64,000 nucleotides of DNA from a virus (IMGVR_UViG_3300010429_000387:1-64000), one strand, 5' to 3'; counted from the stretch's first letter, positions 35,459 to 35,864 are shown. Made by a program: numbers and translations. The notes: generated from the sequence alone by a model not told the origin.

Positions 35459-35530
35459 GCTCCTGTAGTCTAGGGGTCCAGGCAGAGGATTCTAAATCCT
35501 CGAACGCAGGTTCAAGTCCTGTCAGGAGCG
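35459..35530 (+). tRNA. tRNA with CUA anticodon (amber suppressor), Glu/Gln-like body
   Basis: Acceptor GCTCCTG/CAGGAGC; D-arm GTCT/AGGC; anticodon arm GAGGA-TTCTAAA-TCCTC; T-arm GCAGG-TTCAAGT-CCTGT; discriminator G; CCA not encoded. Confidence 0.88.
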
Positions 35531-35553
35531 CCTGTCCAGTGTATACTGCTGGT

Positions 35554-35751
35554 ATGACCACGGACAAACGAAAACAGAGTCTCTACTTCCCCGACGCTAT
35601 GTTGAACGAAATCAAGGATGAGGCGGCCAGATTGGACCGATCCCTCTCCTGGGTCGTTCAGCGTGCCTGGAAGGTTGCTCGTGCCGAGATCCAGAAGATT
35701 CCGAGCACCAACCTCGAACCAGAGGACAAAACCGAGAAGTCCTCGGTGTAA
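35554..35751 (+). CDS. MXAN_4361/MXAN_4362-family (TIGR04563-like) small ribbon-helix-helix protein
   Basis: DKRKQSLYFPDAMLNEIKDEAARLDRSLSWVVQRAWKVAR. Confidence 0.85.
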   Translation: MTTDKRKQSLYFPDAMLNEIKDEAARLDRSLSWVVQRAWKVARAEIQKIPSTNLEPEDKTEKSSV

Positions 35752-35791
35752 AGTCCATCAGATCCCCAGCGTTGGTACAAGCTGGGCTACT

Positions 35792-35864
35792 GCCTTCAAA
35801 GCTCAACGGTCGAGCAGCAGGGTTCTAAACCTTGTGGTTGCGGGTTCGAGTCCCGCTGAGGGCA
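35792..35864 (+). tRNA. Second tRNA with CUA anticodon (amber suppressor), non-canonical features
   Basis: Acceptor GCCTTCA/TGAGGGC; D-arm GCTC/GAGC; anticodon arm (G)CAGGG-TTCTAAA-CCTTG(T); T-arm GCGGG-TTCGAGT-CCCGC; A at position 8; discriminator A. Confidence 0.82.

What the first reader, a model, noticed from the sequence alone, without database searches (positions are those of the whole stretch)
35459..35864. Two different amber-suppressor (CUA) tRNAs in a genome that still uses TAG as a normal stop
Seen: both cloverleaves pair only with TTCTAAA as the 7-nt loop (anticodon CTA); the alternative TCT register leaves the stem unpaired. Their bodies differ: the first is Glu/Gln-like with G73; the second has A8, A73 and a possible 6-bp anticodon stem, so they may insert different amino acids. 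Yet ung, coaE, rsr, speD, the UXS gene and the ARH gene all end at TAG at normal lengths. Inference: these tRNAs are not for genome-wide recoding. They could be regulatory (feeding the double-TAG leader 1.4 kb upstream and the one at 63.9 kb), rescue termination-stalled ribosomes, or disturb host termination.
Basis: partly seen in the sequence, partly recalled or inferred. Interest (0 to 1): 0.85.

Follow-up and report, generated by a model that had tools for sequence, protein, structure and literature searches.

The report
Suppressor tRNAs that unlock a phage operon
A 407-kb phage that uses the normal genetic code carries two stop-codon-reading tRNAs whose conserved job appears to be unlocking translation of the neighbouring peptidyl-tRNA-hydrolase operon, which would explain why standard-code giant phages keep "suppressor" tRNAs.

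Summary
Two canonical tRNAs with a CUA anticodon lie at 35459-35530 and 35792-35864 (+). The complete 407-kb phage genome uses TAG as an ordinary stop for about 30% of its genes and has no in-frame sense TAGs.

Both tRNAs sit just downstream of a same-strand operon: leader, ORF155, ORF146, PTH2. The leader reads MLHFW-TAG-GNPPFT-TAG-LRRIRGPP. The codons after RGPP pair with the Shine-Dalgarno of ORF155.

In 72 related loci, the tRNA nearest a PTH2 homolog is usually a stop-anticodon tRNA. A "gate" codon sits in a leader, at the PTH2 N-terminus or inside PTH2. It matches that tRNA in at least 50 loci: TAG/CUA, TAA/UUA, TGA/UCA. One clade pairs TTA with UAA. On the PTH2 tree, gate codons other than TAG need about six changes, of which at least three are forced by well-supported branches.

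Best reading: the tRNAs are the trans-acting key of a translational switch, not recoding tools. Why PTH2 must depend on suppression is unknown, and nothing here is experimental.

This scan has met the suppressor-gated PTH2 module on other DNA before. I found no paper describing it. XacN1's two CUA tRNAs are a published puzzle that it may solve.

The parts
34013..34132 (+). Leader ORF: ATG MLHFW TAG GNPPFT TAG LRRIRGPPLLFVHPGPKPRTKQEIER TGA. Its TGA overlaps the ATG of ORF155 (ATGA).
   Evidence: Sequence and translation. Homologous leaders occur in 15 related loci.
34028..34030 (+). Gate codon 1 (TAG, context tggTAGg), 11 codons before the Arg of RGPP.
   Evidence: The same 11-codon position is seen in L002, L003 and L004.
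34049..34051 (+). Gate codon 2 (TAG, context acgTAGc), 4 codons before the Arg of RGPP. The two gates lie 7 codons apart, as in L004, L006 and L013.
34064..34075 (+). RGPP codons, a RAPP/RGPP-type ribosome arrest motif.
   Evidence: RAPP and RGPP are the strongest stallers of their class (PMC12992588, PMC10951233).
34076..34120 (+). Anti-SD hairpin. The 5' arm CUCCUUUUCGUUC (34076-34088) pairs with GAACGAAACAGGAG (34107-34120), which contains the AGGAG Shine-Dalgarno of ORF155.
   Evidence: Minimum-free-energy fold. The same design, with different sequences, is seen in L001-L005.
34129..34596 (+). ORF155, a conserved partner protein of unknown function. It is a helical hairpin, many homologs end in -AA, and it is fused to PTH2 in other phages.
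   Evidence: No informative family or fold match.
34593..35033 (+). ORF146, function unknown.
   Evidence: No family hit.
35073..35408 (+). PTH2-family (peptidyl-tRNA hydrolase 2-like) protein, ending in TGA.
   Evidence: Pfam PF01981 E 3.9e-10, 40.4 bits against a cut-off of 23; phrog_1866; PDB Pth2 chains by profile search.
35459..35532 (+). tRNA-CUA #1 (amber suppressor): G73, 4-nt variable loop, Gln/Glu-like body.
   Evidence: Ortholog in L004 at 77% identity.
35554..35751 (+). Small ORF of family TIGR04563, lying between the two tRNAs.
   Evidence: NCBIfam E 7.7e-32, 108.9 bits against a cut-off of 65.
35792..35867 (+). tRNA-CUA #2 (amber suppressor): A8, A73, extra base before the anticodon stem. 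It abuts the TAG stop of the convergent ARH gene.
   Evidence: Orthologs with the same A8 D-arm in L009 (75%) and L004.

Best explanation
The two CUA tRNAs are genuine amber suppressors. Their conserved target is not the proteome but the operon beside them, and they act as the key to a translational lock.

Proposed mechanism:
- Ribosomes starting on the leader normally stop at the first UAG after five codons.
- When the phage's suppressor tRNAs are made and charged, ribosomes read both UAGs and reach RGPP, where they stall.
- The stalled ribosome melts the hairpin that hides the Shine-Dalgarno of ORF155.
- ORF155, ORF146 and the PTH2-like hydrolase are then translated.

Other phages implement the same rule by placing the stop codon at the N-terminus of the PTH2 gene or inside it.

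Shown here: the tRNAs, the standard genetic code, the linkage to PTH2, and the codon-anticodon co-variation. Inferred: charging, suppression, stalling, and the direction of regulation. Unknown: why PTH2 must depend on suppression. My preferred guess is feedback or clean-up of what suppression does to translation.
For: 1. Both tRNAs are canonical and carry CUA.
2. There is no sense TAG anywhere in the complete genome.
3. Linkage. In 52 of 62 related loci that hold any tRNA, the tRNA nearest PTH2 has a stop anticodon; 49 are on the same strand, with a median gap of 270 nt. In this genome the other 49 tRNAs sit elsewhere, 47 of them in the 64-77 kb array and two at 347 kb, and none of them carries a plain stop anticodon.
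4. Co-variation. The gate codon equals the codon read by the neighbouring tRNA in 50 loci: 43 TAG/CUA, 4 TAA/UUA and 3 TGA/UCA. Only one locus differs (L053, TGA with a CUA tRNA), and its PTH2 has its own start after the stop. Twelve loci carry a TAG inside the PTH2 body, all with a CUA tRNA wherever one lies in the stretch; for two of them, not counted among the 50, it is the only gate. L018 has TTA where L012 has TAA, with anticodon UAA instead of UUA.
5. On the PTH2 tree, TAA needs 3 changes (at least 2 forced by well-supported branches), TGA 2 and TTA 1.
6. The leader pattern gives 16 hits on the PTH2 strand, 0 on the reverse strand, and a mean of 3.25 in shuffles.
7. The anti-SD hairpin directly after R[AG]PP is conserved with different sequences.
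8. Leader stops avoid T at +4 (0/21) and favour C (11/21). Ordinary terminal TAGs show 27% T and 18% C.
9. Two-stop leaders go with two tRNA genes in 3 of 5 loci, against 0 of 11 for one-stop leaders.
10. In at least 13 relatives there is no alternative start between the gate and the start of the PTH2 match.
11. The key UUA, UCA and UAA tRNAs pass Rfam.
Against: - Nothing is experimental. Expression, CCA addition, charging, suppression and stalling are all inferred.
- The metatranscriptome support is two short identical contigs, which could be DNA carry-over.
- About 30% of this phage's genes end in TAG, with no enrichment of back-up stops. A strong suppressor should therefore be costly, while a weak one would pass two serial TAGs only rarely.
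- The genome has no release-factor gene and no Glu/Gln-tRNA synthetase gene to bias the competition.
- A terminator-like hairpin lies between PTH2 and tRNA #1, so co-transcription is uncertain.
- This PTH2 family lacks the Lys of the archaeal GKGK motif, so its enzymatic activity is not assured.
- The whole 151-nt leader fold is not more stable than shuffles (z = -0.7).
- The purpose of the circuit is not explained.
Confidence: 0.68

Rival explanations
1. The main job of the suppressors is global. They either back up or compete with release factor 1 at all UAG stops (rescuing ribosomes when termination fails) or perturb host termination. The gated PTH2 operon is then only the feedback governor or clean-up crew. 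This rival is compatible with the key-lock coupling; it differs on what the tRNAs are ultimately for.
For: - In-frame stop sensing resembles prfB autoregulation, where the gate measures decoder activity (established knowledge).
- PTH2 and the phage's own tmRNA are rescue-type functions.
- In the window's clade PTH2 still ends in TAG in 4 of 12 loci, so TAG is not avoided there.
- The tRNA bodies are diverse, so the inserted residue seems irrelevant.
Against: - There is no signature of adaptation to global read-through: back-up stops are not enriched after TAG, at 14.5% against 11.8% after TGA.
- The genome has no RF or RF-inhibitor gene.
- The only conserved, co-varying target found is the PTH2 module.
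Confidence: 0.2
2. The tRNAs are evolutionary intermediates or relics: suppressors acquired on the way to TAG recoding, or left over from it, with no present function.
For: Borges et al. (10.1101/2021.08.26.457843) saw a suppressor tRNA in a standard-code relative of recoded phages and proposed that acquisition precedes recoding.
Against: - That model starts from TAG-depleted, low-GC genomes. This genome has 58% GC and about 30% TAG stops.
- Both tRNAs fit the tRNA model perfectly.
- Orthologs of both persist at 58% PTH2 identity.
- A variant strain carries only a structure-improving change, a G.U pair turned into G-C.
- The repeated codon-anticodon co-switches require selection.
Confidence: 0.05
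3. Programmed read-through of particular TAG-ending phage genes makes C-terminally extended protein variants, as in the Qbeta A1 protein.
For: About 28% of TAG-ending genes have 50 or more open codons downstream in frame.
Against: - The same fraction is seen after TGA (35%) and TAA (26%).
- Coding potential does not continue past TAG (0 of 65 at the strict threshold).
- The XacN1 authors found no homology beyond any of that phage's 18 amber stops (PMC5852040).
Confidence: 0.05
4. Cryptic partial recoding: a subset of genes, for example late or lysis genes, uses TAG as a sense codon.
For: This is the known use of phage CUA tRNAs in crAss-like and Lak phages and others.
Against: - The complete genome shows no excess of TAGs flanked by in-frame coding signal.
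- All 12 candidates are gene junctions or antisense artefacts.
- Local ORF tiling in the relatives shows no gain from recoding.
Confidence: 0.02

Closest known systems
Suppressor tRNAs of cultured standard-code jumbo phages: XacN1 (two CUA tRNAs per terminal repeat; PMC5852040) and Atu_ph07 (UCA; PMC6102473)
   Same: These are large phages with tRNA arrays and the standard code whose stop-anticodon tRNAs have no known target. XacN1 even has two CUA tRNAs. XacN1 and Xoo-sp13 carry a PTH2-domain gene with SD-ATG-AAG(-AAG)-TAG just before the annotated start. Xoo-sp13 has a solid tRNA-CUA.
   Different: In those phages the tRNAs lie far from the PTH2 gene, the gate is inside the ORF rather than in an arrest leader, and an in-frame ATG follows the TAG. 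Reinitiation is therefore an alternative there. The papers looked only at read-through of terminal stops and did not report this gate.
Stop-codon-recoded phages with their own suppressor tRNAs (code 15 crAss-like and Lak phages; Borges et al. 10.1101/2021.08.26.457843; PMC9523058)
   Same: A phage-encoded CUA tRNA overrides UAG in a standard-code host. Timing of gene expression by suppression has been proposed for these phages.
   Different: There, many structural and lysis genes carry in-frame TAG and TAG is rare as a stop. Here no gene carries one, TAG ends about 30% of genes, and the only conserved target is one leader.
RAPP/RGPP regulatory arrest peptides (ApdA, ApdP, ApcA; PMC7897499, PMC10951233, PMC10987492, PMC12992588)
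   Same: A short upstream ORF ends its functional part in R-[AG]-P-P, and the downstream gene's Shine-Dalgarno is held in a hairpin that a stalled ribosome would open.
   Different: The known ones sit upstream of Sec/YidC-type genes and are relieved by protein export. This one is in a phage, upstream of a PTH2 operon, and stop codons that need a dedicated tRNA block access to the arrest motif.
prfB (RF2) autoregulation through an in-frame UGA
   Same: An early in-frame stop codon measures the activity of the factor that decodes it and sets the expression of a translation-termination-related gene (established knowledge).
   Different: prfB uses a +1 frameshift and senses its own product. Here the decoder is a separate tRNA gene, and the product is a PTH2-like hydrolase whose relation to the tRNA is unknown.
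bldA tRNA-Leu(UAA) switch of Streptomyces
   Same: A dedicated tRNA licenses translation of a few regulatory targets that carry its codon (established knowledge). The L018 and L019 relatives literally use a UAA-anticodon tRNA with a TTA codon in the leader, in 62% GC DNA.
   Different: bldA reads a rare sense codon, whereas the window's tRNAs read a stop codon that also ends about 30% of the phage's genes.

Membership tests
tRNA (Rfam RF00005) | Cloverleaf scoring above the curated gathering score, over the full model length. | tested here: met
   57.7 and 53.8 bits against 29, model positions 1-71 of 71, no non-canonical pairs.
Amber suppressor tRNA | CUA at positions 34-36 of a 7-nt anticodon loop, with U33 and a purine at 37. 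| tested here: met
   Both loops read UUCUAAA.
Amber suppressor tRNA | The tRNA is aminoacylated and inserts a residue at UAG in vivo. | not testable with these tools
   Only weak RNA-library contigs are available. The phage encodes no cognate synthetase.
tRNA-Pyl (the label ARAGORN gives) | Six-bp anticodon stem, 3-nt variable loop, small D-loop without G18G19, one base between the acceptor and D stems, and the presence of PylS. | tested here: not met
   Both tRNAs have GG in the D-loop, a GTTCRA T-loop, two bases at positions 8-9 and 4-5-nt variable loops. There is no PylS in the genome.
Stop-codon-recoded phage (code 15) | Many genes with in-frame TAG, and a clear gain in coding density when TAG is read as sense. 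| tested here: not met
RAPP/RGPP regulatory arrest peptide | An R-[AG]-P-P motif near the end of a short upstream ORF. | tested here: met
   LRRIRGPP at 34052-34075. The motif is conserved in 16 leaders.
RAPP/RGPP regulatory arrest peptide | The stall site is placed so that a stalled ribosome opens a structure masking the downstream gene's SD. | tested here: met
   The hairpin at 34076-34120 includes AGGAG. The same layout occurs in L001-L005.
RAPP/RGPP regulatory arrest peptide | Demonstrated ribosome stalling. | not testable with these tools
   This needs toeprinting or ribosome profiling.
RAPP/RGPP regulatory arrest peptide | Association with Sec/YidC protein-localization genes. | tested here: not met
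   The downstream genes are ORF155, ORF146 and PTH2.
PTH2 peptidyl-tRNA hydrolase (PF01981) | Score above the Pfam gathering cut-off across the domain. | tested here: met
   40.4 bits against 23, profile positions 2-105 of 115.
PTH2 peptidyl-tRNA hydrolase (PF01981) | Conserved active-site residues of archaeal Pth2: the Lys of the GKGK motif and an Asp. | tested here: inconclusive
   Aligned to 2zv3, the Asp-containing segment is kept (EPDR), but the family has PPGQQ where Pth2 has GKGK. Scores are below the NCBIfam equivalog cut-offs.
Suppressor-tRNA-gated PTH2 module (known from this scan, unpublished) | A stop-anticodon tRNA next to a PTH2 homolog on the same strand. | tested here: met
   The window's tRNAs start 54 and 386 nt after the PTH2 stop. 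The same holds in 52 of 62 loci.
Suppressor-tRNA-gated PTH2 module (known from this scan, unpublished) | A gate stop codon of the matching type lies in the path to PTH2 translation. | tested here: met
   The window has two TAGs in the operon leader. Fifty loci match and one differs.

The most novel reading that the evidence does not exclude
The suppressor tRNA and the PTH2-like hydrolase form a self-contained homeostat, or an alternative termination device. PTH2 acts on the suppressor's own peptidyl- or aminoacyl-tRNA, or on the products of read-through. Its synthesis is metered by the very read-through it controls. This ancient module, present from mycobacteriophages to Lak phages, would be the standing reservoir of suppressor tRNAs from which stop-codon recoding in phages repeatedly evolves.
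Probability: 0.25. Interest if true: 0.9.

Novelty: new variant of a known kind. Interest (0 to 1): 0.8.

Why it matters
Suppressor tRNAs in phages that keep the standard code are a published, unexplained oddity. [quoted passage not shown]

A conserved, co-varying target would give these tRNAs a concrete function: a tRNA-keyed translational switch built from known parts (an in-frame stop, an arrest peptide and an SD-masking hairpin). The target is a PTH2-family gene or its operon leader, gated by exactly the stop codon the tRNA reads.

It would also explain how suppressors persist in genomes that still use the codon as a stop. That in turn offers a ready starting point for the evolution of recoded phages.

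The idea is directly testable in cultured systems: Xanthomonas phages XacN1 and Xoo-sp13, and possibly Cluster C mycobacteriophages. It also warns annotators that PTH2 starts in these phages are probably mis-called.

Tried and rejected
- Raw ORF coverage under alternative codes is uninformative at 58% GC, because every code looks "better". I replaced it with a codon-usage score.
- One search's count that PTH2 ends in TAG in 14 of 47 loci was wrong. It had picked up internal in-frame TAGs. One search corrects it to 4 of 47 overall and 4 of 12 in the window's clade.
- My first consolidated regex tally mis-assigned several loci. One search replaces it.
- DNA similarity search of the locus against GenBank phages found no match.
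- A single-sequence search with ORF155 in viral contigs found nothing.
- ORF155 and ORF146 gave no Pfam, PHROG or NCBIfam family and no usable Atlas hit. The ORF155 model (pLDDT 87) gave only generic helical matches (Foldseek E > 1; VIA Z <= 7).
- Other TAG...R[AG]PP mini-ORFs in the genome (17.6 kb, 68.7 kb and others) occur at background frequency and were not pursued.
- The 63.9-kb double TAG has no start codon and no arrest motif.
- Catera's PTH2-adjacent "CUA" tRNA is called only by ARAGORN. It falls below the Rfam threshold and GenBank calls it Arg, so the mycobacteriophage case stays a lead.
- A strict pattern for CUA tRNAs in XacN1 and Xoo-sp13 found nothing. The Rfam search plus ARAGORN did find one in Xoo-sp13.
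- RNA-type runs gave only two short identical contigs, at 35484-35719 and 34170-34320. These cannot show transcription, ends or strand.
- The genome has no RF-domain, GluRS/GlnRS or PylS gene.

Full report
**1. The observation**

ARAGORN finds exactly two tRNAs in the 64-kb window, at 35459-35532 and 35791-35867 on the + strand. Both carry the anticodon CTA. Rfam's tRNA model scores them 57.7 and 53.8 bits against a gathering score of 29. The covariance-model alignment is full length, shows no non-canonical pair, and places CUA at the anticodon of a UUCUAAA loop in both.

The cloverleaves are ordinary, with GG in the D-loop and a GTTCRA T-loop. They are not tRNA-Pyl despite ARAGORN's label, and the genome has no PylS.

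The two tRNAs are 66% identical to each other and at most about 70% identical to any other tRNA of the genome.
- tRNA #1 has G1-C72, G73 and a 4-nt variable loop. Its anticodon stem is nearly that of the phage's tRNA-Gln(UUG).
- tRNA #2 has A8 and A73, plus one extra base ahead of the anticodon stem.
- Neither encodes CCA. The phage has a CCA-adding-type enzyme at 389.9 kb.

**2. The genome and its code**

The window is the first 64 kb of a complete 407,078-bp virus record with 57.9% GC. IMG/VR classes it as having direct terminal repeats, and 214 bp are exact in the assembly. It carries 49 other tRNAs and a tmRNA, almost all between 64 and 79 kb, and none of them has a plain stop anticodon. 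The two CUA tRNAs therefore stand apart from the general tRNA array.

I built a codon-usage score trained on the 62 longest ORFs.
- TAG ends 65 (strict threshold) to 124 (looser threshold) strongly coding stretches.
- In-frame coding continues past TAG in 0/65 and 6/124 cases. The figures are 6/154 and 16/254 for TGA, and 2/26 and 4/39 for TAA.
- The 12 borderline TAGs are gene junctions (TAG followed by an RBS and ATG) or antisense-frame artefacts.
- Back-up stops are not enriched after TAG.
- UDG, CoaE, ARH and Ro60 reach the last positions of their profiles and end in TAG.

TAG is therefore an ordinary stop, used by about 30% of genes, and there is no recoding. The genome has no release-factor-domain gene and no Glu/Gln-tRNA synthetase gene.

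**3. What lies beside the tRNAs**

All of the following are on the + strand:
- a 39-codon leader (34013-34132) reading MLHFW-TAG-GNPPFT-TAG-LRRIRGPP..., whose TGA overlaps the ATG of the next gene;
- ORF155 (34129-34596);
- ORF146 (34593-35033);
- a PTH2-family protein (35073-35408; Pfam PF01981, E 3.9e-10);
- tRNA #1;
- a small TIGR04563 ORF;
- tRNA #2.

[quoted passage not shown] The 13 bases immediately after the RGPP codons (34076-34088) pair with 34107-34120, which contains the AGGAG Shine-Dalgarno of ORF155. A ribosome stalled at RGPP would cover and open this hairpin. The same anti-SD layout, with different sequences, follows R[AG]PP in L001-L005.

**4. Comparative evidence**

*Data set.* PTH2 has 120 homologs in the protein collection, many on contigs of 100-460 kb. 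I fetched one viral locus with the single protein, 65 with a profile and five GenBank phage regions.

*Linkage.* In 52 of the 62 loci that hold any tRNA, the tRNA nearest PTH2 has a stop anticodon. Of these, 49 are on the same strand, with a median gap of 270 nt. Half of all tRNAs in these loci (63 of 125) are suppressors.

*Three kinds of gate.* A stop codon lies in the path to PTH2 translation in one of three ways.
- (A) An R[AG]PP arrest leader ahead of an ORF155-PTH2 operon. This is the window's clade, 16 loci.
- (B) SD-ATG, one to eight codons, then a stop, then the conserved PTH2 domain. In at least 13 loci there is no alternative start before the start of the PTH2 match.
- (C) A mini-leader M-x-TAG-x-[KRGV]-P-P-stop ahead of an ORF155-like::PTH2 fusion.

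*Match to the anticodon.* The gate codon equals the codon read by the neighbouring tRNA in 50 loci.

| Gate type | TAG/CUA | TAA/UUA | TGA/UCA |
|---|---|---|---|
| A | 12 | 4 | 0 |
| B | 17 | 0 | 3 |
| C | 14 | 0 | 0 |

- Twelve further loci have a TAG gate with no suppressor inside the fetched stretch.
- One locus differs (L053), and it has its own start after the stop.
- Seven loci show no gate of any of these kinds (after the two added).
- Twelve loci also carry, or only carry, a TAG inside the PTH2 body. All have a CUA tRNA wherever a tRNA is present.
- L018 and L019 (62% GC) have TTA where the homologous L012 leader has TAA, and a class-I tRNA with anticodon UAA instead of UUA.

*Checks.* The key UUA, UCA, UAA and CUA tRNAs pass Rfam; only L066's does not. 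The leader pattern occurs 16 times on the PTH2 strand, never on the reverse strand, and 3.25 times on average in shuffles. On a PTH2 tree, the TAA gate needs 3 changes (at least 2 forced by well-supported branches), TGA 2 and TTA 1. The codon and the anticodon therefore switched together several times independently. The window's leader-type clade is nested among in-ORF-gate types.

**5. Why two tRNAs?**

- Orthologs of #1 (L004, 77% identity) and of #2 (L009, and L004 with the same A8 D-arm) exist.
- Leaders with two stops keep them 7 codons apart. They go with two suppressor genes in 3 of 5 loci, against 0 of 11 loci with one stop. This suggests dosage matched to a steeper threshold.
- Across loci the suppressor bodies are very diverse: class I, long-arm class II of 89-94 nt, and every discriminator base. 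Nearly all keep a YU-CUA-AA loop. The inserted amino acid seems not to matter, which fits a gate in a leader or N-terminus rather than proteome recoding.
- Leader stops never have T at +4 (0/21) and often have C (11/21). Ordinary terminal TAGs of this genome show 27% T and 18% C. This is consistent with selection for a leaky context. The leaders are related to one another, so this evidence is modest.

**6. Cultured phages**

XacN1 is published as having two CUA tRNAs per terminal repeat with no identifiable target (PMC5852040). Atu_ph07 has a UCA tRNA (PMC6102473).

In XacN1 and Xoo-sp13 the PTH2-domain gene is preceded in frame by a strong SD, then ATG-AAG-TAG or ATG-AAG-AAG-TAG, four codons before the annotated start, which has no SD. 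Xoo-sp13 has a 68-bit tRNA-CUA. Reinitiation at the annotated ATG is an alternative in these two phages.

Cluster C mycobacteriophages (206 records with a PTH2 homolog) show start-TAG-GTG at the annotated PTH2 start and a nearby tRNA that ARAGORN reads as CUA. That tRNA is below the Rfam threshold and is annotated otherwise, so this remains a lead. The literature notes the PTH2-like gene in those tRNA arrays but no link to suppressors (PMC5966550). My searches found no paper describing the module.

**7. Interpretation**

The coupling between suppressor tRNA and PTH2 module is well supported. The arrest-and-unmasking mechanism in this genome is supported by motif, geometry and conservation, but not by experiment.

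What the circuit is for is open. PTH2 is made only when suppression works. By analogy with prfB, this suggests that it limits suppression or cleans up after it. A pure timer, as with bldA, is the other simple reading.

Points against a strong global suppressor:
- About 30% of genes end in TAG, with no back-up stops.
- In the window's own clade PTH2 itself ends in TAG in 4 of 12 loci.

Expression evidence is weak. One metatranscriptome holds an identical 236-nt contig running from tRNA #1 into the small ORF, and another holds 151 nt of ORF155. A 1.3%-diverged strain keeps both leader TAGs. Its only tRNA change is in tRNA #1, which turns a G.U pair into G-C.

**8. Relation to earlier notes of this scan**

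The suppressor-gated PTH2 module has been reported by this scan on other DNA many times (e1-933198, e1-5364104, e1-5815015 and others). My tests agree with those notes and add five points:
- the arrest-leader implementation in this genome;
- the Pro-Pro-stop mini-leader;
- the TTA/UAA variant;
- the link between the number of tRNAs and the number of stops;
- the count of independent switches.

**9. Correction**

One search's figure on PTH2 terminal stops was contaminated by internal TAGs. One search supersedes it.

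Noticed in passing
G000:C1:67947-68020 (+), 71582-71653 (+), 347126-347200 (-): ARAGORN calls three tRNA-like genes with irregular anticodon loops: an 8-nt loop 'ctgg', a 6-nt loop 'ga', and an 8-nt loop 'ctca'. The last contains TCA and could be an opal or frameshift suppressor.
   Followed up: partly
window 34129-34596 and homologs (alignment A2): ORF155-family proteins have a conserved basic core (RPETG-ER..LW..KR...LLAYA-LRGR-Y) and mostly end in -AA (EVAA, EQAA, EKAA). 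This recalls ssrA-type degrons, and the phage's own tmRNA tag ends in AKAA. In other phages this domain is fused to PTH2.
   Followed up: partly
window 35554-35751 (+): The small ORF between the two suppressor tRNAs is a full-length TIGR04563 family protein (E 7.7e-32). Its role, and any hint it gives about the host, were not explored.
   Followed up: no
L018:4594-4671 and 5796-5869; L012: This is a bldA-like variant of the module. In 62% GC DNA the leader has the rare sense codon TTA where a homologous leader has TAA, and the linked class-I tRNA has anticodon UAA instead of UUA.
   Followed up: partly
L068:5431-5463 (XacN1), L069:5436-5463 (Xoo-sp13): The annotated start of the PTH2-domain gene is probably wrong. 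A strong SD and ATG lie 7-8 codons upstream in frame, separated from the annotated start by a TAG. The N-terminal domain of these 280-aa proteins (GQ-IL-HGLSV motif) also occurs in L040 and L064.
   Followed up: partly
L070:5236-5308 and 6001-6291 (Lak-A1): A TAG-recoded Lak phage has a UUA (ochre-reading) tRNA 1 kb upstream of its PTH2 homolog, with two in-frame TAA codons shortly before the domain. In such AT-rich DNA this could be chance.
   Followed up: no
L011, L021, L022, L024-L026, L037, L039, L041, L052 (about codon 31-36 of the PTH2 match); L001 and L017 (about codon 51-53): Internal in-frame TAG codons recur at similar positions inside the PTH2 body (after ...PG or ...PP) in distant lineages. 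They form a second gate in addition to the leader or N-terminal one.
   Followed up: partly
G000 whole genome, 20-kb bins: TAG-ending genes are rarer in the central 80-280 kb (about 24% of stops) than in the flanks (31-38%). This may reflect a gene class or expression phase.
   Followed up: no
window 17566-17604 (+) and G000:C1:68662-68715 (+): Two further mini-ORFs have a TAG followed by R[AG]PP: MAGFGKASW-TAG-SARIHRRGRGPP and MNDVETTIPT-TAG-MSWVRAPP. They occur at background frequency, and conservation was not tested.
   Followed up: no
window 32686-33189 (-), 35868-36812 (-), 38948-40648 (+): The module sits among RNA- and ADP-ribose-related genes: a weak DarG/macro-like ORF, an ADP-ribosylglycohydrolase that abuts tRNA #2, and Ro60. 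Together they look like a translation/RNA-protection island.
   Followed up: no
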